Shown here: piece by piece, positions 11,429-32,339 of the stretch | How the letters are laid out: each line of letters starts with the position of its first letter | How positions within the stretch are numbered: the stretch's first letter is position 1 | Source of the DNA: Basidioascus undulatus | Taxonomy: Eukaryota | Assembly: GCA_000826855.1 (NCBI GenBank) | Contig: JTLS01000093.1 | Coordinates: 1 to 32,339 of the forward strand | Length of the DNA stretch: 32,339 nucleotides | Direction: 5' to 3' | The notes under the pieces: model-generated | Told to the model about the DNA's origin: nothing | The model's input: only the letters and a program-made list of their open reading frames with translations | The model's database searches: none | Position numbers and translations under genes: made by a program

Positions 11429-13582
11429 ATGCGCGGCCTCGGCGGGTTCGTCGCCCGCAAGCTGCCCAGCATCGGCGCGCTTCTTATTGGCATCATGGTC
11501 GGCCTCATCTGGGCCCAATATTGGGGCGGCGGTCGGGTCTGTCGCTGTTTCTTGAGCTGGTGTAGTAGCTCGGCGGCTCATCTGTTGGAGGACCGGGATG
11601 TGGGTGCTTTGCTGGTGGACGTGGGGACAGACTGAGTCCGCGGCTTGGAGTGGTGCGCCTGCACGAGCACTACGACCAAATCCTCTTCGGTGCGCCCACC
11701 TTTCTTTCACAGTCCCATTTACCCTCTCCAATCTCGCCCTCATGCTAATGAAATCATTTCCCCGATCCCTTCCCGTCCCGCTTTACGCACCCTCTTCTTT
11801 CACGTCACCCGATCCCCCAATCTGTCCGCCCGCGCAGTTCCCTCGGCCGCTCCTCCCTACCTACTCCCTCCGAAGAACAGCGCTTCCGCGTCCTCGAGCT
11901 TCTCACGACCCTCTCCGCGCACCACACCAAGGAGTGCACCCGCGAGGCGCGCGCCTCCTACGGCAAGCAAGCGCACGAGCGTTACGCTCCCCTTGTCGGC
12001 CACCAGATCCCGCGTTCCAAGTCTTTCTTCAGCGGCTGGGGGTCCGGCGGGGCGCAGTCCGATGCGCGCTGGGGGTCCTCCTTCGGCGATGCAGACATGG
12101 TCTCTCGCGCGGTCGTCCGGCGCGACCTGTCGAACCAGCAGCACAAGTACTTCTTCGCGATAAACCTCTACAACTCGTTCGACGTCATCCCCGATCTCTT
12201 TGCGACCCTTTTCCGCGTCTCCGCTATCCTCGGCTACCACAACGTCTTCGTCTCGATCTACGAGAACGGCTCGACGGACCAGACCAAGGCCCTGCTCCGG
12301 CTCTTCGACGCGCTCGCCCGCTCAACCGGACTCCGCATCGTCATCCGCACGAGTATGCGCACTCGCGGCGCGTTCAACCACCGTATCGAGTACCTCGCGG
12401 AGGTGCGCAATGCTGCGATGCTGCCGCTGCATGAGCTCCGTGACTCGGAGGGGGAGGTCTTCGACACCGTCATCTTCATGAACGACATCTTGCCGTGCGT
12501 CGACGACGTCCTCGAGCTCATCTGGCAGTCGCGCCGCCAGAACGCGGGCATCACTTGTGCGTCCTTCATCTCCCATCGTAACTTACTGCCTTCGCTCCTG
12601 GCCCAAAACCCGTTCCTCCAACTCAGGCGCGGCCGACTACATGTTCCACGACGAGATTGGCGCGCCGGTCTTCTACGTGCGTCCCGCCTCTTCTTTCCTT
12701 GCTCCCCTCTCCCTCAGGCTCCTTTCCTCTTCCAGGACAACTGGGTCGCCCGCGACCTGAACGGCACGGCGCTAGAGAACGCGCCCTTCGAGGGCGTCTT
12801 CCGGCACGAGGGATCTTCGTACCGATTCCAGAAGCACCTGCCCATCCAGGTCCAGTCCTGCTGGAACGGCATCGCCATCCTCGACCCCGCGCCGCTCTAT
12901 GCGGCCCCGCACGTGCGCTTCCGCATGGCGAAGATCTCGGACGGCGAATGCTCGGCGTCCGAGTGTGGCCTTATCTGCAACGACTACTGGAATGCCGGGT
13001 ATGGACGGATCATCATGGTTCCGCGTGTCAAGTTGGCGTATGACAAGGTGAGGCTGCGCGGAGGGCAGGATGGGGAGGAGCGCTGGACGAGAGCGCTGAC
13101 GTTGCTTCATGAATCCTAACCGAGCAGAAAGTCTTCGACATCATCCACCCAGATCGCAAGAACCTGACCTCTATCCGGGGGTACAAGAAGATCGGCGGGA
13201 TCGCCGACGACCCGACGAGCGACCCTCAAGGTCCGTCCTCCTCCTCATGCTTCATTCCCGTCCCGCTTGCCTCTTTCTCACGCCCGTATGCATCCCCACA
13301 GACAAGTCGTGGTACGGCCCGCACGACCGCCTGTTCGTCGCGGAGGAGAGTGAGGAGATCAACTTCAAGCAGGGTCCTTCGCACGGTATGTCTCCGCATC
13401 GACCGTTCCTCTCTCCCTCTCCGGCGTTCTGATATGTCCGTCTGTGCAAAGTGTGGTGCTGGGGCTGGGACGGTGCCGGCGACCTGGATGGGCCGGACGT
13501 CGACCCCATCTGGGAGAAGGTTACCAACAACAGCGCCAAGCCCGAGGCGGTGCGCGTCCGGCACGATCGGAGCTTCCTTTGA
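11429..13582 (+). CDS. CAP59: CAP59-type alpha-1,3-mannosyltransferase (CAZy GT69). Exons 11429-11536, 11631-11689 (these two tentative), 11838-12556, 12627-12676, 12736-13047, 13128-13230, 13302-13385, 13452-13582
   Basis: The spliced product closely follows Cryptococcus Cap59 as I recall it: EQRFRVLELLTTLSAHHTKEC, HKYFFAINLYNSFDVIPD, VSIYENGSTDQTKALL, NHRIEYLAEVRNAAMLPL, FMNDILPCVDD, DNWVARDLNG, VQSCWNGIA, GECSASECGLICNDY, VWCWGWDGAGDLDGPDVDPIWE. There is an N-terminal transmembrane anchor (IGALLIGIMVGLIWA). Confidence 0.95.
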
Positions 13583-22288: not shown

Positions 22289-25200
22289 TCAAACGAAGCC
22301 GACGAGATCCACGCCCAACGCCCGACGAGCCTGAACGATCGCAACAAGCCTGTCGAGCAAATGCCATCAGCTGCGGTGCGAGTGAACCTGACCTAGACAA
22401 ACAGAGACGCACTCCTTGATAGTCTCCTCGAGCACGACGACGTTGTCCAGCAGCTGCGAAAGCGAGACCTCGGGCAATGGCAACGGCGGCAGTGGCGCCT
22501 CAGTTGCGTCGCCGCCCACGTCCTCGGCATTCTCCTCTTCCCGCTCCTCCACAACCGACCAGAAGAGGTCCCTGCCGCCGCACCGCCTCTTCGGTGCGGG
22601 CGACCAGGGCCCTGCGCTGGGCGGAGGTACGACGACCGGGCGGACGCTGATGGCCTCGGTCTCGCGGTAGTGGTCGGCGAAGGGCGTCGTCGGCCCAGCG
22701 CGGGCGACAGGCGTTTCGGGCGCGGCCGACTCGCGCTTCTTGCGGGGAGTGAAGAACGACGCGAGCCCGCGAGTCTTGGCTTTGACGTGCGAGACCGGCG
22801 TCGGCGTCGCGGGCGTGTTGACCGGCGGTGGGGGAGGGGCCGTCCGGTGGGAGAGGGGAGTAGCGGGGAGGGGCTTGCGGTCGGGCGAGGAGCTGCTCGC
22901 GACGTCCGACTCGAACTGCGCGACGAGAAAGGAGCGGTCGTCGTCCGAGCTCGCGAGCGAACCGAGCGCGGCGAGCGCGTCGTTGAGGTTCTCGCGGAAG
23001 AGGAGGCCGCGGCGGCGCTCGCGCAGCAGGTTGTCGTACGCTTCGACCTGCTGCCGGTACGTCTCGAGCTGATTAACGAGCTCCTTGAGCGTGGCGAAGA
23101 CGACGGGCGTCGCTGCATCCTCGAAGCGGTCGAGCGAGGGTAGACGTTGACTAGAAGGAGCGTCGACGTTCGCAAGGGTCGCGTAGTCGTCGTCCACGGA
23201 GCGGTCGTCACCGTCGTCGTCTCCGTCCGCTGCAGACGTCTCACGCTCACGCGCCAGCAGTCCCGAAGCCGACGTACTCGCGGCGCCGTTCCCGAACACC
23301 AGCCAGCCTTCGAGCGACCGGCACGGATTCTGGGCGATACCAGCGAAGACGCCAGAGAGCGCGATGTTGTGCTCGGGCGAGTTGGAGAAGAAGCTGCGGA
23401 GCGAGGAGAGCAGGAGGCCGAGAAGACGATCGGAAGGGTCAAGGCGGTGGTTCGAGGACGCATTCGACTGGCGGTCGTCATCGGAGAGGAAGAAGTCGGG
23501 ATGTGCTTCGATCGCGGCCATGGCGTCCTCAAGGTATCGCTCGAAGCCGGTGCTCAGGATCTCGCGGTTCGGGGAGGTGTCGATGGAGCCGATGAGGGAG
23601 AGGTACAGTCCAAGTTCGCGAACTGTCGTGGACATGGGGCGGACATGCGCTGCAGGTGTCGTTGGTTCGACCTGCGGAGCAGGCGCAGGCTCGTCTTCTT
23701 CGGGGTATACGAAAGTGTCGGAGTCAGGCGTGGCGGGGCGAGGTGGAAGGACAGGGAGCGAGGGAGGGAGGAAGGGGAACGCCGTAGCGGCGGGATCGGG
23801 GATGAGGCAGAGTAGCTCGGGTCCTACGAGGCGGTGATGGCGGGAGAGCAGCGTGGAGAGCAGCTTGAGCGCGGCGACGGCGGAGGACTGGTTGCTCGAG
23901 GCGACGTTGGTGAGGATGAGGTCTTTGAGGGTGAAGCGTAGGGACGACGAGAAGTAGGCCGTTTCGTCGCCTCCGCGCGCTTTGCGCTGCTCGTTCTGCA
24001 AAAGCACCAGCGCAGTGCTCTTGCGGCGGCTGTGCTTCGTCGCGCGCGAGGCGCCCTTCTTCTCGCTGACCGGGTCTTCCTCCGCAACGAGGTACGACAG
24101 GAGCAGCTCCGTGAGAGGGCCTTCGCCGAGCGTTGCTAGCATAATCTCGAGGTAGCTTAGGACCGCGACCGCGCTCCCGTCGTTGTCGGAGCACTCGAGG
24201 ATGGACGGGTACAGCACGCTGCCGAGGAAGGTATTGCGAACGGCGGCGATGACTCCCTCGGCGATCGCGATGCCGAGGCGGGACGCGCTCGTGAACCCAC
24301 GCCGGACGATCTCGGCTGTGAACTCAAGCACGCTGAGGAAGACGCTGAGCTGCGCTTGGAAGACGGGGCTCGTGCACGTCTCGAGACCGTCCAGTTCGGC
24401 CGGGGTCGCGCCGATGCGCATGGCGGAGGTTGCGCCGGCGGTCGCGTCGTCCGATTCCGGGGGGAGGACAGCGAGGTGCGGAGGGAGAACCGAATAGACT
24501 GCGCCCAGACCGGCGGCGAGAACCTCGGCCAGGTCGCCGTCCAGGATGAATTCGGCGAGCGCGATCGAGACGTCGGCGGCCGATGAAGGATCTGATGACG
24601 AGGAAGAGCCCATAGCGACATCGAGGAGGAAGAGGATGCCGGCCCGCGCGAGATCGCCAGTGCGGCCCTCGCGGTGGACCCAGCGGAGGAGGAAGGTGAA
24701 GAGGAGACATTCGACTGTGCTTCCGGTCTTTCATCAGCGCATTCTCCGCGTTGAGAAGCAAAGACTGACATTCTGGTTTTGAGGAAGTCGCGCGGGAGGA
24801 TGTGATGGTGGACACGGAGAGCGCGGGCGAGGCGGCCCGGTCGGAGAGCTGCTCGGTTGCGTCGGAAGGCGTGCGGGCATGCGCGGAGCGTTGCGGGTTG
24901 CGCGCCCAGGCTTTGTCGAGGAAGAAGATGAGGAGAAGCGACGGCGAGGCCTTGATCTTGCTGCAAAGGATACACATGAGGTCGACCACTGCCACCCATT
25001 CATGGGCCTTCGTTTCAGCATCGCGCATGCCGTCCAAGCTACTATCCTCCACTCACCATGCTCCTCGTACTCAGCCGGCTGCACGACAGCCGCGGAACTC
25101 GCAGCGCCCAGCACCCTCTGCCCCTCTGCAGCCTCGTCGCCCGTGCACATCTGGAGCAAGCGCACGAGCGGCTTGTGCACGGGCGCCTGGACGAGAAAGC

Positions 25201-26058: not shown

Positions 26059-27147
26059 CTATTTCTTCGCAGGCTTCCCCCATCCCTCTAGGCATCCCCT
26101 CCAGAACTCGTCCTCCCACCAAACACCCTCAACCTTCTTCGCAACAGTCCGACCCCTCTTTCCCACACCAGGCGTCCCCGGCTCGCACCGCTTGAGATAC
26201 CATAGCTCCTGCACGCCCTGCTTGCGGAGGTAGTCGTGCGTGCGCGCATAGTTGAGGCCGACGTTCGGAGGCGTGTGGGCGTCGTCCGAGAGCGTCATTC
26301 GTCCGCCGTGAGACAGAATTAGCTGGAAGCGACAGACACAGCAAAGTTAGCGAACGCAGAGTCATAAGTTCCGGCTGAGCACGAGCTCGGAAGATGCACG
26401 CACAGAGAGAACGTCAGAGGCCGGGTAAGGCGTAGACCATCCCTTCCTGATCGCGGCCGCGTTAAACTCAAACAGAGCGCCATATCCCACCCCGTATTTG
26501 ACGACCTCCTCCAGGATCTCACACGCCTTCCCGAACTCCTGTAGCTTGACCTCCGGCTCGTACAGCCGTATCAGGTCGATGTGCCCGATCACCTCGGGCT
26601 CGAACGCCTTGACGAGCTCAAGAAGGCGCGTGTAGTACTCCTCCAGAAGCGGAGCCCACCCGCCCGCCTTCGCTAGCGCATTCTGGAAGTTGGGGAGGTC
26701 GAAGTCGATGGGGACACAGAACGCATGGTGCACGCTGCCGACGAGGTATTCGACCGGGTGCGGCGAGGAGGTAAGGAGGGTTTCGAGAGAGGAGAGGTCG
26801 AGCGCTGTGATGGACTCGGTTTCGAGGCCGACGAGAAGCGAAATGCGCGAGGCGTGCTCGGCGCGGAGGGCGTGGGCGGTGGAAAGGTACGAGTGGAAGA
26901 TCGTCATGAGGTCGGCAGGCTCGAGGTCCTCCTACGGGCTAGGTTGTGAGGCTGACTGGATCTCTTCGAAAAGACTATATGGGCGTACTTCTTCAGGATA
27001 CAGGTCCTCCTTCCGGTACCTGGGGCAGTGCTCCGATAACCCGTACGTCTTGAATCCACGCGAGATCGCGGAATCGACCATCTCAGCGAGGGTACCCGAG
27101 GCATGCCGGCAGAATTGACCGGAATGCGAGTGATGCGAGAACGGCAT
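26059..27147 (-). CDS. HIS2: histidinol-phosphatase (PHP family). Exons 27147-26989, 26931-26404, 26322-26059
   Basis: MPFSHHSHSGQFCRHASGTL, YGLSEHCPRY...DLYPEE, LLVGLETE, YLVGSVHH...PIDFD, PEVIGHIDLIRL, FEFNAAAIRKGWSTPYP and TLSDDAH are the PHP metal-binding motifs of fungal His2. Two phase-0 GT-AG introns. Confidence 0.95.
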
Positions 27148-27551
27148 AACGGGCGCCTGCGTATATGAGCCGAAAGTGAGAAGCGTAAGGAGAAAGCCAG
27201 GAGAGCCAAGCGAGAGAGCCAGAAGACCGGGCTCGACGACTGGACTCCACTCGATTGCTCGTGGGGTTTGCTGATTCAGAGCAACGAGTGCAGACGCTCG
27301 ACGAAACGCTTTGTTCAGGTTGCGAAAGTTATGTCGTCATCGATATTCAACAACAAGGAAAAAGAGCTGGTGTCCATGTATCACACGCGCTCAACGACAC
27401 GCAAAGGGAGACGGGTGAAGGAAGAAATGAGAGAAGGAGCGAAAGAATCCAGATGGCCACAGCGGACCAAAATGCTACATAGCCCGTGACGGTATCAGGA
27501 AGCACAAAGAAAAAAGAAATAACAGCCCTTATCTTCCCATCGCAGACGTTC

Positions 27552-30500
27552 TCAAGCCGGCGTCTCCTTCCGCCTGACCCGCCGCGGGTTGGGCAGGGCA
27601 TGCTCGGGGTGGATGTACCGCGCCGTCGCAGCGATTCGGAAGCCTTGAGGGTGGACCGCGTGCTGCACACCAACGACAACGTGAGCACCTTCGAATAACG
27701 AAGAGGGAAAGAGGAGGTGCGAAGGTAAGAGGGGAAGCGAATCAAAAGCGTACCAGATAATGCTGCTGGATGCCCTCCCCCTCCATGACAATGCAGTCGC
27801 CATGTCCGATCCGGACACTCAGCACGTCCTTTGAGTTCCTCGGCTCGCCCTTGGCGCGCTTGACGCTTTCGCGTTTGCCCTTCCGGCGGTCCGGCTTCGT
27901 CTCAGCGCCGTGCTTCTTTGAGACCATGATCTGCTTCCGCTTGTCCTCCTGACGGCGGAAGCTCATGGTCGCGTCCGAGCCGAACGAGAGCGACGCGACA
28001 ACTGGGCCGAGCCCGTGCTCGCCATCGTCGTGAAAGTCCATCTTCTGCTGCTCCATATAGAGAACGCTGCAGTCAGGAACGCAACGGCGTCAGCGGAGGA
28101 AGGGAGGGCAGGTCAGCCGAGAGAGCGTACGAGAGCAACTCGTTGAAATCGATGTCCTTGAGGGACGAAGAATTGACAGCTTTCTTGGCGAGACGTGTGA
28201 TCCTGCCAGCAGCGATAAAGTCAGCAACGCAAAGCCTGTCTGGGTCTTCGCGACAGAACGTACAAGTCGAGCGCGTCGCGGATGACTGGCTGAGCTGCCT
28301 CGAAGGGAACAGTCTCCGCGTCGACGATGTACTGCATGTCCTCGATCAATTAGCAGCGAACGACATTGGCTCGAAAATTGGTCCGCTCTCACCTTGTACG
28401 GAGCGCCATGATTGGCCGTCCAATGCTGCACGAGCAGCCGACCCTCAATAGCGTGCTGTGCGTAGCCCTCGCGTCAGCCAATGTCTCTCCTCCGCAAAGG
28501 ACGAAACACGTACGCTCTTCATAGCTCGCCGCTGAAACAGCATGATAGGCACGTGAGCATCGCCGTCGCGGCCAAGGTATTTAAGCAGCATCTGGTCCGC
28601 CTGCTGTCGGATGTCGTCGTTCGCGACAATCTGGTGGACTGTCCCAATGCCATCCGGGAAAGTGTACGAAAGCACTTCGACGCCAGCGATGGTGCGCCTC
28701 TTGAAGACGATGCCGGCCGACTCGCGCACGAGGTTGAGCTCGAGCGAGGGTGCGTCGTTGCGTGTGAACGGAATGTCGCTGATCTTTTTCGAGATGAGGG
28801 AGAAACCGGCGTCGTGGCAGTGCTGGCGGAATTGAGAAATCAGATTGGTATGCAGCGGCGAGCAAAGACAAAGGGGTCTCCTTACGCCGCAGTGCCGGCA
28901 TTCCCATCGGTCGATGAACTCCCTGCGTGTCGATTGGATGAGCGTCGCTAACATGAACATCAAATCGAGATCCAGGAACGTACCTGCTCGACAGCCGCCC
29001 ACATTCAGGGCACCAATAGCCTCTCCAGCAGTCGCGGTCAAAGTACCGCTTCGCGGCGGCTGCGTCTGCTGCAGAAGGATGTGCCGGCGGCGCGATGTTG
29101 AATGGCACGTCGCGCGCAAGACTGTGCTCGGGGATACGCCGAAGGAAGTCGCGCGAGTAGGAGACCTCGCTCGGGAACTCGACCAGCGTGTTGTCGGCGG
29201 AGAGCATCTGTATCGTATTCATCGTTTCAAAGAGGACAGTACCCCGCCCCGCTAGACGCACCATGAAGAACACGCTGCATTCGGGTTCAAGACACGCCCA
29301 GCCCTCCGCATAGATCTGCACCGAACCTTGCCCGCAATGCTGGCAGGTCGTCCGCTTCCACGCGGTGGTGCTGTCGGCGTCACGTCAGCGCCTCGATCGT
29401 ACGCAAGGGGGATACTGCGCGCGTACGTGTCCCAGTCTTTCCGTGCTTCGCGTGCCTTCCGCAGCTCAGCGATAGGATCGACCGCGGGGATGATCGCCTT
29501 GCTCGTGGCCGTCGGTGCACTGCCAGATGTTGCGGCGCTCTCAGTGATAGCAGAAAGCGACGCTCTCGCGATGGAGATGTCAGCGAAGATGCCCCTGTGG
29601 AAATGCTAGTCAGCGCCGACGACAGGTTGACAACTAACGGGGCGAACCGCGCTAACTTACCGGCTCGGAAGTGCCGTCTGGTGACCGCGCGGGGAGCGCC
29701 GCAAGAAAGTCAGCAAGTCGAGAGTCGGCGGAGATAGAGATACATCAGCGGCGCCAGAAGACGGCCTGCCGGCGTCCAAAGATCAGAAAAGAACACCTGC
29801 TGAGAGATTCGGAACGCGACGTACCCAGTAATGGTAGCATTCATGGCCGGCTCGGGCAAGGTTTGCTCAGGGGCCGCAACGCTCGCATGCGGCATTGGCT
29901 TGCTAGGCAAGCATCGCAAGCCGAGAGGAGTACCAGACCGCCGACGAGATAACGTTGCAACAGCCGAAGGAGTTTGCGACGGCAAACTGAAAATACTAAA
30001 TCATCAGGAGATAGCTGCTAACCAAAGGCCGCAAGAACGGGACGCACGGAAGGACGACGCCCTTGTCTTTACGCGGCAACCGAGCTGTCGTCTGGGAGCT
30101 GGCGGAGTGTACCAACGGCGAAACGACCGTGGGAGCAAAGCTGGCCTGCTCGACGTCGATCGCGTCGTCCTTCGCAATCGCAATCGACTGCTGCCAATTC
30201 AGACCCACGACCGCATAAGCATACGCGCTTTAGATGAAGACGAGGTATCGGCCTACCAGCTTCGCTTCCTTCCCAAGCTGGTGGTAGGCGCGCACGGAAG
30301 CTTCCGTATCAGCCGAAGCGCTCCGAGGCTCGCGACTGCCCGCTACACCATCAGCACGAAGAGTCGCGGCGTTGAATGAAGACAGTCACGTACTCAGCGG
30401 GCAGAGCTAACCCATGATTGCGGGGCGGCCGCCGCGGCATACCCAGCATTGAAACAAGTCTACGAGCGCATGTCCGCATCAGCAAACTAGAATGCAAGCC

Positions 30501-32339
30501 AGACGGAGTACTCACGCCTCCATTGCAGCTTCCTCGGCCAAGTTTACTGTGGCATCGGGCGTCCGGACTTCGTCCTCACCACTACTCGAGCCCGAGTCGG
30601 GAACGAGAGCGGGCACCGGTGCCGACGGGGGCTCCTCAAGCTCCCGAATGCGCTTGCTCCTGTGCACGCCGGGTATCGGTACGGTCGCCGGCGGAGGGAC
30701 GAGAGGCCGGGGCACAGGCTTATGCGTGGGGTTGCGGGCGTCCCATCCGGAAGGCTCGTATTGCGCCTCCCTCTCGCCCAGCCACCACGGAGGCCCTTGC
30801 GATTCCTGCGACGTACATTGTGGGTCAGATACGAGGGGATTCGGGAGAATGAAAGCGAAAGTGAGAGCGCACCATGTACTGGAAAAGGAGCTTCACGCGC
30901 TTGAAGTAGTTACGTTGACGACCGGTCTCAATCGCGCTGTCCACGAACTCCGCCTCGACCCAAGCGTGGGAGATCTATAAACGTCGAGAAATTCAGATGT
31001 TTCAGCTTCGCAGACAAGACGAAACAGGCTGTAACTGTAGCTTACGAAGTACCAGCCTGCACCCGAGCCAACTGTCAGTTGGACTGAAATTGTGCGTTGA
31101 GTTAGCCTGCGTTCACAGTAGGCACTGACCGAGAATTGCGAACCGACAGCCGAGCTTGAACGGAAGCTGCTGGTACTTGCTGTAGCGTTCGCAAATCAGT
31201 TCACCGCTTCCAGAGCGAAAAACAAAGACAGTCGCTCACGATCCGGCGAGCAAGATGATGGGCTGCTTGCTCCTGTACGCGCCAAGCAGCGCGCTCACCC
31301 GCTGTTCATGCCGGTCCATCTTCCACTTCAGTCATCTCATCCACCGCCTTCAGCGCGCAGTGGAGAATGAAAGCGCAGCCTCACAGCGTCCTCCTCCTTC
31401 TGGTCCGCGCCTAGCGCAAACTGCCTCATGACCGGCGCTTTCTTCTTCTTCCTCTTCTGCTTCTTCGCTCCAGCACCCCAGCTCTCCTGATCTTCAGGTT
31501 CCCCTTCTGCTTCTGGTTCTTGCTGGTCGGCCGCCTCAATGTCCGTAACGTCCACCATCTTGCCGCCTCTGCTTATCACGCCAACGTGCAGCCCACACAC
31601 TCAGAGTTAGCCCTCCGGACAGCGAGGGGGGTATGAGAGACCAAATGCATGACTGCGCGGGGTCGGGTAGGGACAGGGACAGGGACAATCAGGTGACAGA
31701 CCCGTGCGAGATGATAAGCCGCCCGCCTTCCGCAAACACGTCACGGCTGCCCATCAACCGTCCGAGGGCGTAGTGAGCTGCTCGAACTCGGGGAAGGGGG
31801 TGAGAAGGGCGGGGTGGCATACGGGCTGGGATAGCCCTGCGACGTCCCAACACATTCAAGGTCAGACTCGCTCTTTCCGAAGGTGCAGGCCAAGCCGCTC
31901 GTTAACTCACATCGACCAGGTACCCAATCGGTAGCTTATCCTTCATGTCTGTTCAACCAAACAGGAAAGTCAGCAAAATAAACGGCAAAATGAGCGGATC
32001 AGATCGCACACAGTCCGCTATGAAACGCCCGATAATGCGGCAGACTCTCGCACAGCTCTTGGCGAGTCTGCACACAAAAGAACCGCTCATCAGCTCACGC
32101 CGCTCGCGACCCAAAAGGGAAAGGTAAATAGAACGGCAAGACACACCTCAGCCCACACTTTCGGCGGACGCGGCGGCCCAGCGGTCGGCGGGGGCGGATC
32201 GCCCCCAGCCAAGGTGGGGTTGACTGCCTTGCGCGACGCGCGCTTCGCATCGGGCTGGACGAGGAGGGACGGCGACGGGTGCTGCTGCTGCTGCTGTTGC
32301 GGATACATCGACGCAGCGTCGAACGGCGACGAAGCCTGG
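27552..32339 (-). CDS. large fungal AlkB-like 2OG-Fe(II) dioxygenase with an N-terminal SRA/SAD-like region and Cys clusters. About 20 exons; the start is ATG 32308 or lies beyond the window
   Basis: 5' exons splice in phase to PKVWAE|TRQELCESLPHYRAFHSGLY|MKDKLPIGYLVD|GYPSP|RDVFAEGGRLIISHG|GGK...LGADQKEEDA|RVSALLGAYRSKQPIILLAGS|KYQQLPFKLGCRFAILG|WYF|ISHAWVEAE...KLLFQYM|ESQGPPWW. Middle: CQHCGQGSVQIYAEGWACLEPECSVFF, YWCPECGRLSSR, WECRHC. C-terminus: QHWTANHGAPYK, FNELLSVLYMEQQKMDFHDDGEHGLGPVVASLSFGSDATMSFR, HGDCIVMEG...QQHYL|HAVHPQGFRIAATARYI, giving the HxD...H iron triad and R-x5-R. Exons in the 29600-30500 linker are uncertain. Confidence 0.88.
31670..31687. repeat. (GGGACA)3 intronic microsatellite
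   Basis: gggacagggacagggaca, inside the 31701-31569 intron of the dioxygenase gene. Confidence 0.8.

What the first reader, a model, noticed from the sequence alone, without database searches (positions are those of the whole stretch)
27552..32339. SRA-like reader, Cys clusters and AlkB dioxygenase in one gene: candidate nucleic-acid base-modification enzyme
Seen: fragments scattered over 4.8 kb splice into one protein. It has an N-terminal block with IISHGGGK...ADQ...VSALL...PIILLAG...ILGWYFISHAW, a KKQKRKKKK NLS-like insert, four Cys pairs, and a complete catalytic set (HDD near 28032-28024, distal H, RIAATAR). Known: SRA/SAD domains flip out and read modified cytosines (motif order GG...DQ...AL...P+R+), AlkB enzymes oxidatively demethylate bases, and comparative genomics has predicted a fungal AlkB subfamily fused to SAD/SRA and Cys clusters. 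I know of no biochemical characterisation of it. Inference: a single-chain reader plus eraser or modifier of methylated DNA or RNA. It is the best candidate here for uncharacterised biology, and the window also shows signs of CpG-type decay.
Basis: partly seen in the sequence, partly recalled or inferred. Interest (0 to 1): 0.7.

Follow-up and report, generated by a model that had tools for sequence, protein, structure and literature searches.

The report
Fungal SRA–zinc ribbon–AlkB fusion gene
An intron-rich fungal gene encodes one protein joining an SRA-type domain that flips out modified bases, two zinc ribbons and an AlkB-type oxidative demethylase; this family was predicted years ago, and I found no bench test of it.

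Summary
On the minus strand, 25 exons joined by 24 GT-AG introns (54-133 nt) give an open 1045-codon chain ending at a TGA at 27554-27552. The chain runs off the window at 32339, so the "N-terminal block" is really mid-protein. The chain matches a profile of 21 fungal homologues in one piece (E 5e-202). The upstream block hits 78 of 151 proteins retrieved with the AlkB core, so the fusion is the usual form. A model of the block from a 45%-identical homologue (pLDDT 85) matches only SRA domains at the top: KRYPTONITE Z 14.3, SUVH5 13.8, TagI 13.5, UHRF1 13.3. Sequence membership in SAD_SRA is sub-threshold, and the motif Tyr-Thr is Ser-His here. The four Cys pairs form two generic zinc ribbons. 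The AlkB core passes Pfam, sits closest to ALKBH3, and keeps HxD, the distal His and RxxxxxR. No RNA data could be obtained. One transcript is inferred from collinearity and from five minus-strand intron-like elements in the linker (0 of 200 shuffles reach five). The CpG-decay remark fails (CpG o/e 1.10). Iyer and Aravind predicted this architecture (2009, 2015). Relatives occur across Basidiomycota, Ascomycota and Mucoromycota, and all named ones are "hypothetical". This is a new member of a known but uncharacterised kind.

The parts
27552..32338 (-). Whole gene as far as the window holds it. It has 25 exons and 24 GT-AG introns and gives 1045 codons plus a TGA stop at 27554-27552. The 5' end is open at the window edge. 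Exons (high-low): 32338-32147, 32067-32010, 31948-31911, 31836-31823, 31746-31702, 31568-31385, 31301-31240, 31179-31130, 31056-31046, 30974-30873, 30805-30516, 30459-30394, 30335-30257, 30190-30048, 29986-29825, 29765-29661, 29594-29427, 29370-29262, 29207-28984, 28922-28514, 28455-28393, 28331-28264, 28202-28131, 28066-27754, 27662-27552.
   Evidence: The model was built by hand, guided by homologues, and checked (no internal stop, all introns GT..AG). It matches the family profile in one domain at E 5.1e-202. Three points stay uncertain: the exact linker exons, an optional in-frame 63-nt intron at 28885-28823, and the acceptor of the intron ending at 31569.
32147..32338 (-). First exon held by the window. 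It encodes a low-complexity Q/P-rich stretch that precedes the SRA-like domain. The true N-terminus lies beyond the window.
   Evidence: The frame is open to the window edge. BLASTP alignments to homologues reach model residues 1-14, matched to homologue residues 235-417.
30776..32170 (-). SRA-like (SAD/SRA-fold) domain, model residues about 57-262, spread over 10 exons that include micro-exons of 14 nt (31836-31823) and 11 nt (31056-31046).
   Evidence: The block hits 78 of 151 AlkB-retrieved proteins, best E 1.2e-55. Residues encoded by the micro-exons align without gaps to homologue residues. The window keeps 19 of 20 invariant columns. The fold of the 45%-identical homologue block matches SRA domains.
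31439..31558 (-). Lineage-specific insert of about 33-40 residues (an acidic run, then KKQKRKKKK at 31465-31439). It sits in the loop between ISHGGGK and ADQ. A possible NLS or extra DNA contact.
   Evidence: The alignment shows the insert is absent from most of the 19 homologues shown and shorter in three of them. The NLS reading is inference only.
29371..30775 (-). Non-conserved linker, model residues about 263-590, with six predicted short introns.
   Evidence: An open path exists. Five strict intron-like elements lie on the minus strand against 0 on the plus strand, and 0 of 200 shuffles reach five. The codon-position signal is weak, GC3 0.66. There is no conservation against a profile of nine homologues, eight tremellomycete and one Mrakia.
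29277..29345 (-). Zinc ribbon 1, C-x2-C-x13-C-x4-C.
   Evidence: All four Cys are invariant in 12 of 12 homologue modules and are kept in the window. Only weak matches to known zinc ribbons were found.
28889..29012 (-). Zinc ribbon 2, C-x2-C-G-x13-C-x2-C, split by the intron at 28983-28923.
   Evidence: All four Cys are invariant in 12 of 12. The weak best matches are eL43/L37Ae-type ribbons.
27552..28888 (-). AlkB-type Fe(II)/2-oxoglutarate dioxygenase domain with its N-terminal extension. HxD lies at 28032-28024, the distal His at 27662-27660 and RxxxxxR at 27638-27618.
   Evidence: Pfam PF13532 gives E 1.6e-12 on the core exon. The best solved relative is ALKBH3, E 0.0045 for the window exon and 4.1e-7 for homologue P0045, with HxD aligned. 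The family consensus YeHtV...RiAaTaR aligns to the last exon.

Best explanation
This is one nuclear gene for a multi-domain nucleic-acid oxidative demethylase.

Shown here:
- A mid-protein domain has the SRA fold, the beta-barrel that in UHRF1, SUVH proteins and modification-dependent restriction enzymes holds a base flipped out of duplex DNA.
- After a long disordered linker come two zinc ribbons and an ALKBH3-like AlkB domain with a full Fe(II)/2-oxoglutarate site.

Inferred:
- The SRA-like module and the zinc ribbons dock the protein on DNA at a modified or damaged base.
- The tethered AlkB domain then hydroxylates an N-methyl group nearby or on the opposite strand. The likely substrates are 1-methyladenine or 3-methylcytosine lesions, or N6-methyladenine. 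The product decays to formaldehyde and the unmodified base.
- The SRA module may give an ALKBH3-type enzyme, which I recall prefers single strands, access to duplex DNA without a helicase.
- The remodelled motif (Ser-His where SRA has Tyr-Thr) argues that the base read is not ordinary 5-methylcytosine.
For: Gene structure:
- There is an open 25-exon chain with 24 GT-AG introns.
- A profile of 21 homologues aligns collinearly (profile positions 257-831) along 32070-27594.
- The spliced chain matches the profile in one domain, E 5.1e-202.
- 18 of 150 homologues give tblastn hits in both blocks in the same order.
- The linker holds 5 minus-strand intron-like elements against 0 on the plus strand, and 0 of 200 shuffles reach 5.

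Fusion is the norm:
- The block hits 78 of 151 AlkB-retrieved proteins.
- All 36 proteins found with the block of P0045 are 665-1462 aa long, and 33 of 36 carry PF13532.
- These include CNAG_08028 of Cryptococcus neoformans H99.

SRA fold:
- The AF2 model of the P0045 block has pLDDT 85.4 and pTM 0.81.
- Foldseek gives 57 matches at E<=1e-3. Every row I could name is an SRA-type domain: TagI 3.4e-8, then UHRF1/NP95, SUVH5, UHRF2 and KRYPTONITE.
- The independent VIA search ranks 13 SRA-fold chains first (Z 14.3 down to 7.3), then drops to 5.6.
- The profile of the block against PDB sequences has SUVH6 as top hit, E 0.019.
- SAD_SRA is the only recurrent second Pfam family, in 15 of 49 members, best E 3.3e-5.

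AlkB domain.

Intactness: the window keeps 19/20, 11/12 and 14/15 invariant columns, and the one full-length miss is the start Met, which lies off the window.

Chromatin or DNA context in relatives: AT-hooks occur in 3 of 49 members and a PHD finger in P0038.

Literature: passages of PMC4738411 predict this fusion and place SRA fusions in the AlkBH3 clade.
Against: - No transcript evidence exists for the exon chain.
- The linker has a weak codon-position signal (third-position GC 0.66, against 0.65 and 0.59 in the other frames).
- The linker is not conserved.
- The model needs two micro-exons of 14 and 11 nt.
- The fold was shown on a homologue 45% identical in the block, not on the window's own spliced product, which could not be handed to the folding tool.
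- Pfam SAD_SRA never reaches its cut-off. The best hit listed with a score is 21 bits against 30.7, and the best E-value among the 49 members is 3.3e-5.
- Two base-flipping modules in one chain cannot hold the same base at once, so their cooperation is conjecture.
- Substrate, strand and DNA-versus-RNA are all untested.
- ALKBH3, the nearest solved relative, also acts on RNA (recalled).
Confidence: 0.6

Rival explanations
1. It acts on RNA rather than DNA. Under this reading the protein is an m1A, m3C or m6A demethylase for tRNA or mRNA, and the SRA-like barrel works as a PUA-like RNA-base reader.
For: The nearest solved enzyme is ALKBH3, which I recall also demethylates RNA and tRNA. PMC4738411 (passages) allows 'm6A in RNA or DNA'. 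The motif differs from the SRA form.
Against: All 13 top structural neighbours are DNA-binding SRA domains. No YTH, EVE, ASCH or PUA chain appears among the 17 rows with Z of 5 or more. Some relatives carry AT-hooks or a PHD finger.
Confidence: 0.12
2. It is a canonical 5-methylcytosine reader coupled to oxidation of 5mC, so it acts as a TET-like eraser at methylated CpG.
For: The domain has the SRA fold. Orthologues exist in Cryptococcus and Kwoniella, lineages that I recall carry DNMT5-dependent 5mC. I also recall that AlkB enzymes can oxidise 5mC weakly in vitro.
Against: In the alignment to SUVH6, the Tyr-Thr of the SRA YTGxGG motif is Ser-His, and the Ser is invariant in 12 of 12. I recall that this Tyr stacks on the flipped 5mC. 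The family spans Ascomycota, Ustilaginomycetes and Mucoromycota, including groups I recall as having little or no 5mC. The window shows no CpG depletion, though that is weak evidence. PMC4738411 also argues against 5mC.
Confidence: 0.1
3. In this genome the locus is two adjacent genes on the same strand: an SRA-only protein that ends near 30514, and a zinc-ribbon-AlkB protein that starts in the linker.
For: If the intron at 30515 is not spliced, the frame stops at a TGA that overlaps the donor (read). In-frame ATGs exist in the linker. Linker coding signal is weak and the linker is not conserved. At about 335 residues, the linker is longer than in relatives, which have about 100-240.
Against: The linker is packed with five well-formed minus-strand introns 48-75 nt long, separated by exons of 66-162 nt. 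That leaves no room for a terminator and a promoter. Every relative with the block is a fused protein.
Confidence: 0.07
4. It hydroxylates or demethylates a protein such as a histone, and the SRA-like and zinc modules serve only as chromatin anchors.
For: I recall that some AlkB homologues (ALKBH1, ALKBH4) have been reported with protein substrates. Chromatin-type domains occur in some relatives.
Against: The closest solved relative is the nucleic-acid enzyme ALKBH3. Nothing here points to a protein substrate.
Confidence: 0.05
5. The copy in this window is a decaying pseudogene.
For: The model needs two micro-exons, and the linker looks poorly coding.
Against: There is no stop or frameshift in any conserved exon. 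The window keeps 19/20, 11/12 and 14/15 invariant residues. Both micro-exons have proper AG and GT flanks and encode residues that align to homologues. GC3 is 0.73-0.77 in the conserved domains against 0.55 GC in introns.
Confidence: 0.03

Closest known systems
Fungal SAD(SRA)-AlkB fusion proteins predicted by Iyer, Tahiliani, Rao and Aravind 2009 (Cell Cycle; seen only as reference 90; the paper is not held) and by Iyer, Zhang and Aravind 2015 (PMC4738411; passages seen)
   Same: The architecture is the same: a divergent SRA domain fused to an AlkB dioxygenase of the AlkBH3 clade, found in fungi, and proposed to act on methylated bases.
   Different: Nothing of kind differs; this is a member.
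Human ALKBH3 (PDB 2iuw and others)
   Same: It is the best solved sequence relative of the catalytic domain (E 4.1e-7 for P0045, 0.0045 for the window exon). The HxD motif, the distal His and the fold family are shared.
   Different: ALKBH3 is a single-domain protein (solved chains 232-250 residues). Here the domain sits at the end of a protein of more than 1045 residues, behind an SRA-like domain and two zinc ribbons. It also carries a basic insert of roughly 40-45 residues inside the core.
SRA domains of UHRF1/NP95, SUVH5, SUVH6 and KRYPTONITE
   Same: They share the fold (Z 11.9-14.3 over 127-153 aligned residues; Foldseek E 1e-5 to 3e-7). The order of motifs is also the same: GG, DQ, AL, a buried P-hydrophobic strand, and G-aromatic...W.E.
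   Different: Sequence identity is only 14-23%, and Pfam SAD_SRA stays below its cut-off. Ser-His replaces the Tyr-Thr of YTGxGG. The fusion partner is a dioxygenase, not a RING or SET domain.
SRA-like domains of modification-dependent restriction enzymes (TagI, MspJI, AspBHI, LpnPI, ScoMcrA, SauUSI)
   Same: They share the fold (TagI is the Foldseek top hit at 3.4e-8 and has Z 13.5). The logic is also shared: a base-flipping reader is fused to an enzyme that acts on the nucleic acid.
   Different: Their partner is a nuclease and they are prokaryotic. Here the partner is an oxidative demethylase in fungi.
Characterised fungal demethylases Dmt1 (Mucor, NMAD-1-like AlkB) and CcTet (Coprinopsis), as listed in the 2026 review PMC13297926 (passages)
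   Same: They are Fe(II)/2OG dioxygenases proposed or shown to remove methyl marks from fungal DNA.
   Different: They belong to different clades (the ALKBH4/NMAD-1 type and TET/JBP). In the passages I saw, neither is described as fused to an SRA domain.

Membership tests
AlkB family (Pfam 2OG-FeII_Oxy_2, PF13532) | The sequence matches the family model above the curated cut-off. | tested here: met
   The window exon 27742-28089(-) scores 48.5 bits against a cut-off of 31.2, E 1.6e-12. All 49 aligned homologues match.
AlkB family (Pfam 2OG-FeII_Oxy_2, PF13532) | The Fe(II) facial triad HxD...H is present. | tested here: met
   FHDDGE at 28035-28018 aligns to WHSDDE of ALKBH3. The His of YLHAV aligns to the family YeHtV, and in homologue P0045 to WQHRV of ALKBH3. 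H991, D993 and H1049 are invariant and H1066 is nearly so in the 49 sequences, and the window keeps them.
AlkB family (Pfam 2OG-FeII_Oxy_2, PF13532) | The Arg pair RxxxxxR that holds 2-oxoglutarate is present. The role of this pair is recalled, not tested. | tested here: met
   RIAATAR at 27638-27618 aligns to the family consensus RiAaTaR.
AlkB family (Pfam 2OG-FeII_Oxy_2, PF13532) | The protein shows oxidative demethylation activity on nucleic acid. | not testable with these tools
   This needs enzyme assays.
SAD/SRA domain (Pfam PF02182) | The domain has the SRA beta-barrel fold. | tested here: met
   This was shown on the block of homologue P0045, 45% identical to the window block. The model has pLDDT 85.4. 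Thirteen SRA-fold chains rank first at Z 14.3-7.3, and the next row is 5.6. Foldseek gives 57 matches at E<=1e-3.
SAD/SRA domain (Pfam PF02182) | The sequence matches the Pfam model above the curated cut-off of 30.7 bits. | tested here: not met
   No window piece matches. Among homologues, 2 of 27 and 15 of 49 match only below the cut-off. The best hit listed with a score is 21 bits, and the best E-value is 3.3e-5.
SAD/SRA domain (Pfam PF02182) | The base-pocket residues of 5mC-reading SRA domains are kept, for example the Tyr of YTGxGG. The role of this Tyr is recalled. | tested here: not met
   The profile alignment to SUVH6 places the family's iiSHG.GG under vLTYTGqGG. The Ser is invariant and the His nearly so in 12 sequences. 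The N-terminal half of the pocket could not be aligned residue by residue.
SAD/SRA domain (Pfam PF02182) | The domain binds a flipped modified base in DNA. | not testable with these tools
   This needs binding assays or a complex structure.
Predicted fungal SAD(SRA)-AlkB fusion family (Iyer et al.) | A divergent SRA domain and an AlkB domain lie in one polypeptide, in fungi. | tested here: met
   The match to fused homologues is collinear. The named relatives checked are all fungal. A single transcript in this genome is inferred, not observed.
GRF-type zinc finger (considered for zinc ribbon 1) | The module matches the zf-GRF model or solved GRF fingers. | tested here: inconclusive
   The idea came from a recalled motif resemblance. 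zf-GRF is not among the 25 families listed for the 49 members. No GRF chain appears among the 18 weak PDB profile hits. Foldseek gives nothing at E<=1e-3 and VIA gives nothing above Z 2.5.

The most novel reading that the evidence does not exclude
The SRA-like barrel of this pan-fungal family may have a rebuilt pocket (Ser-His in place of Tyr-Thr). Under this reading it reads an N-methylated base in duplex DNA, either 6mA or a 1mA/3mC lesion, and passes the site to its own tethered ALKBH3-type oxidase. That would make a self-contained flip-read-erase machine that needs no helicase. It could be the missing DNA 6mA eraser, or a new duplex alkylation-repair route, of Dikarya.
Probability: 0.25. 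Interest if true: 0.75.

Novelty: new member of a known kind. Interest (0 to 1): 0.5.

Why it matters
SRA domains are the classic readers of methylated cytosine, and AlkB enzymes are the classic oxidative erasers of N-methyl bases. A natural single-chain fusion of the two, kept across three fungal phyla, suggests a reader-guided erasure or repair step that has not been tested. In my searches no relative carries a functional name. A 2026 review lists only two characterised fungal demethylases, and neither belongs to this family. The gene has an orthologue in Cryptococcus neoformans H99 (CNAG_08028) and in other sequenced yeasts such as Rhodotorula toruloides. The idea that a remodelled SRA pocket reads something other than 5mC should therefore be testable with standard binding, LC-MS and knockout experiments. 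For this particular window the result is more modest: it is a well-preserved orthologue of an already predicted family.

Tried and rejected
- **Own genome.** None is held, so co-occurrence with DNMT or 6mA methyltransferases could not be profiled.
- **RNA support.** No RNA holder was listed for 27400-32339.
- **Word-index protein searches.** With window exons they gave nothing or one hit. The HMMER scan of representatives supplied the homologues.
- **First automatic splice model.** It was wrong in the SRA block and missed the last intron. It was replaced by the homology-guided model.
- **GRF zinc finger idea for ribbon 1.** This rested on a recalled resemblance and found no support. Both modules are left as generic zinc ribbons.
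- **Conservation of the linker.** None was seen against a profile of nine homologues, eight tremellomycete and one Mrakia or against 28 further relatives.
- **No close orthologue.** The best relatives are 40-45% identical in the SRA block and about 35% in the C-terminal half. The organism was not identified.
- **Residue-level mapping of the whole SRA pocket.** The fold tools return ranges only, so just the YTGxGG region could be compared.
- **Earlier findings of this scan.** Nothing was returned.
- **Literature.** Searches found no bench study of the family and no paper naming CNAG_08028. The 2009 Cell Cycle paper is not held. CpALKBH (PMC11708048, passages) is a 350-aa protein found with ALKBH5, so it is not this family. 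Fusarium 'ALKBH2' (933 aa, PMC10826363, passages) may be a member, but I did not verify it. Supplements of these papers were not opened.

Full report
**What is in the sequence**

The region 27552-32339 carries no long ORF. Instead it holds many short open stretches on the minus strand. Read on that strand, the stretches are separated by short segments that start with GT, carry a CTRAY-like branch and end in YAG. This is the pattern of an intron-rich fungal gene.

Of 16 stop-to-stop pieces scanned against Pfam, only 27742-28089(-) gave a significant hit. That hit was 2OG-FeII_Oxy_2 (PF13532), E 1.6e-12, 48.5 bits against a cut-off of 31.2. No whole genome is held for the window, and no RNA run was listed. 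The gene model therefore rests on sequence signals and homologues.

**Homologues and gene model**

A full HMMER scan with the AlkB core exon found 510 proteins at E<=1e-3. Many of the best 150 are 650-1900 residues long and match the query in their C-terminal part.

- tblastn of these 150 against the window gave hits in the AlkB exons and the Cys-cluster exons.
- For 18 of the 150 it also gave hits in the upstream block at 32127-30740, always in the same order.
- A profile of 21 such proteins aligned to the three minus-strand frames in 11 collinear pieces, profile positions 257-831 along 32070-27594.

A first automatic model was wrong in places. A hand model guided by these alignments gives 25 exons and 24 GT-AG introns of 54-133 nt. 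It has no internal stop and 1045 codons, and ends at a TGA at 27554-27552. The spliced product matches the family profile as one domain, E 5.1e-202, profile 235-830 against model residues 46-1031.

The model needs micro-exons of 14 nt (31836-31823) and 11 nt (31056-31046). Both have proper AG and GT flanks. The residues they encode (GYPSP, GWYF) align without gaps to AFPAP and GWYW of homologues.

The frame is open to the window edge. Homologues have about 235-417 more residues upstream of the matching point.

About 415 bases downstream, on the same strand, a PHP-domain gene begins. This fixes the 3' limit.

**One gene or two**

The stretch between the two conserved parts (30775-29371, about 328 codons in my model) is not conserved. 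Its codon-position signal is weak: third-position GC is 0.66, against 0.65 and 0.59 in the other frames and 0.73-0.77 in the conserved domains. An unspliced reading would stop at a TGA that overlaps the donor at 30515.

Against a split, this stretch holds five strict intron-like elements on the minus strand, each with a donor GT[AG]NG[TC], a CTRAY branch, a YAG and a length of 48-75 nt. The plus strand holds none. The mean is 0.21 in 200 dinucleotide shuffles, and none reaches five. The predicted exons between them are 66-162 nt, which leaves no room for an intergenic spacer.

Every relative that has the block is a fused protein:

- The block hits 78 of the 151 proteins retrieved with the AlkB core.
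- All 36 proteins found with the block of P0045 are 665-1462 aa long, and 33 of them carry PF13532.

I rate a single gene at about 0.9, but it is inferred, not observed.

**The upstream block is an SRA-fold domain**

The window's spliced product could not be handed to the folding tool. I therefore aligned 12 homologue blocks (A1) and folded the one nearest to the window. That was P0045 residues 335-530, from Kwoniella shandongensis, 45% identical to the window block over 204 columns. The model has pLDDT 85.4 and pTM 0.81.

- **Foldseek against the PDB.** It gave 57 matches at E<=1e-3. Every listed row I could name is an SRA-type domain: TagI 3.4e-8, then NP95/UHRF1, SUVH5, UHRF2, KRYPTONITE and SUVH9.
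- **VIA search of 48,161 representative chains.** This search is independent of Foldseek. It ranked 13 SRA-fold chains first:
  - KRYPTONITE Z 14.3 (rmsd 2.9, 142 aligned)
  - SUVH5 13.8
  - TagI 13.5
  - UHRF1 13.3 and 12.9
  - SUVH6 11.9
  - SUVH9 10.8
  - ScoMcrA 9.9 and 9.4
  - AspBHI 8.6
  - LpnPI 8.5
  - SauUSI 7.8
  - MspJI 7.3

  It then dropped to 5.6 for phage tail proteins.
- **Sequence level.** The evidence is weaker but points the same way. The A1 profile has SUVH6 as its best PDB match (E 0.019, 2 matches in all at E<=10). SAD_SRA is the only recurrent second Pfam family, in 15 of 49 members, best E 3.3e-5, always below the cut-off.

In the SUVH6 alignment the family's invariant ISHGGG lies under vLTYTGqGG. 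The Tyr-Thr of the SRA motif is therefore Ser-His here. I recall, but did not test, that this Tyr stacks on the flipped 5mC in UHRF1. The change fits the statement in PMC4738411 that this version "has distinct features" and may read something other than 5mC (passage).

The window keeps 19 of the 20 columns that are invariant in A1. It also carries its own insert of about 33-40 residues, an acidic run followed by KKQKRKKKK at 31465-31439. The insert sits in the loop between ISHGGGK and ADQ. I recall this loop as the place of the SRA finger.

**Cys clusters**

The four Cys pairs form two modules: C-x2-C-x13-C-x4-C at 29345-29277 and C-x2-C-G-x13-C-x2-C at 29012-28889. All eight Cys are invariant in 12 of 12 homologue modules (A3).

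The modules look like ordinary zinc ribbons:

- Profile matches to the PDB are weak: HVO-2753-like 0.025, Pol alpha C-terminal zinc module 0.078, eL43/L37Ae 0.08-0.5.
- The AF2 model is moderate, pLDDT 75.
- Foldseek finds nothing at E<=1e-3, and its best match is eL43 at 0.25 over 30 residues.
- VIA finds nothing above Z 2.5.

A GRF-finger resemblance that I recalled found no support.

**AlkB domain**

The nearest solved structure is human ALKBH3, E 4.1e-7 for P0045 and 0.0045 for the window exon. FHDDGE aligns to WHSDDE. The distal His (YLHAV, first codon of the last exon) and RIAATAR align to the family consensus YeHtV...RiAaTaR.

The window keeps 14 of the 15 invariant columns of the 49-sequence full-length alignment. 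The one miss is the start Met, which lies off the window. PMC4738411 also places the SRA fusions in the AlkBH3 clade (passage).

**Who has it, and what is known**

Named relatives come from three phyla:

- Tremellomycetes: Kwoniella, Cryptococcus including C. neoformans H99 CNAG_08028, Tremella, Naematelia, Kockovaella, Cutaneotrichosporon, Vanrija, Cryptotrichosporon and Mrakia.
- Agaricomycetes: Suillus and Mycena.
- Ustilaginomycetes: Pseudozyma.
- Microbotryomycetes: Rhodotorula, Rhodosporidiobolus, Microbotryum, Sporobolomyces and Phenoliferia.
- Ascomycota: Aspergillus, Apiosordaria, Clathrospora and Phlyctema.
- Mucoromycota: Jimgerdemannia.

Every name given is 'hypothetical', 'uncharacterized', 'unnamed protein product', a bare locus tag or a plain domain label. 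None is closer to the window than about 45% in the block or about 35% in the C-terminal half.

Some members add AT-hooks (3 of 49) or a PHD finger (P0038), which suggests a chromatin setting.

Four literature searches found no bench study of the family and no paper naming CNAG_08028. A 2026 review lists Dmt1 and CcTet as the first characterised fungal demethylases (passages).

**How it most likely works**

Shown here: an SRA-fold domain, two zinc ribbons and a complete ALKBH3-like catalytic domain in one conserved chain.

Inferred: the SRA-like barrel and the ribbons hold the enzyme on nucleic acid, most likely duplex DNA, at a flipped modified base. The AlkB domain hydroxylates an N-methyl group nearby, and the product decays to formaldehyde and the repaired base. 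Two flipping modules cannot hold the same base at once. The last option would explain why a single-strand-type AlkB is fused to a duplex base-flipper.

The substrate is open. I favour alkylation lesions or 6mA in DNA over RNA marks or 5mC, for the reasons given under the rivals.

**Verdict**

The function remains a prediction that others made before. The locus is a well-preserved new member of a known but uncharacterised family. The side remark on CpG decay is wrong: CpG o/e is 1.10.

Noticed in passing
window 26362-27336 (-): A PHP-domain gene (histidinol-phosphatase-like) starts about 415 bases downstream of the stop of the AlkB gene, on the same strand. Pfam PHP gives E 4.9e-10 and 4.3e-7 on two adjacent ORF pieces, so this gene is also split by an intron or a frame change.
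   Followed up: partly
window 11752-13119 (+): An ORF has a full-length match to CAP59_mtransfer (Cryptococcal mannosyltransferase 1, PF11735), E 4.9e-61.
   Followed up: no
window 22367-24730 (-): A 787-codon open stretch matches RAI16-like (E 2.5e-35) and DUF5917 (E 3.1e-9).
   Followed up: no
window 31836-31823 and 31056-31046 (-): Two micro-exons of 14 and 11 nt are needed to keep the SRA-like domain in frame. Both have canonical flanks and encode residues conserved in homologues.
   Followed up: partly
whole window: CpG is not depleted. CpG o/e is 1.10 overall and 0.93-1.20 in 4-kb bins. TpG+CpA o/e is about 1.0. The first kilobase is unusually GC-rich (0.70).
   Followed up: yes
related proteins P0038, P0177 and 3 of the 49 in alignment A2: Some family members carry extra domains. 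P0038 (Phenoliferia) has a PHD finger, three members have AT-hooks, and P0177 (Cutaneotrichosporon oleaginosum) has a Zn2Cys6 domain, which may be a merged gene model.
   Followed up: no
clusters of P0166 and P0167 (Cryptococcus neoformans and the gattii complex): Deposited models of the orthologue vary widely in length among strains: 742, 665, 664, 566, 544 and 409 aa in C. neoformans, and 760-604 and 240 aa in the gattii complex. This suggests differing gene calls or truncations.
   Followed up: no
window 27837-27960 (-), inside the AlkB core exon: A basic insert of roughly 40-45 residues, rich in K and R, lies between the HxD strand and the following conserved strand. It is longer than in ALKBH3 and in most homologues.
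   Followed up: no
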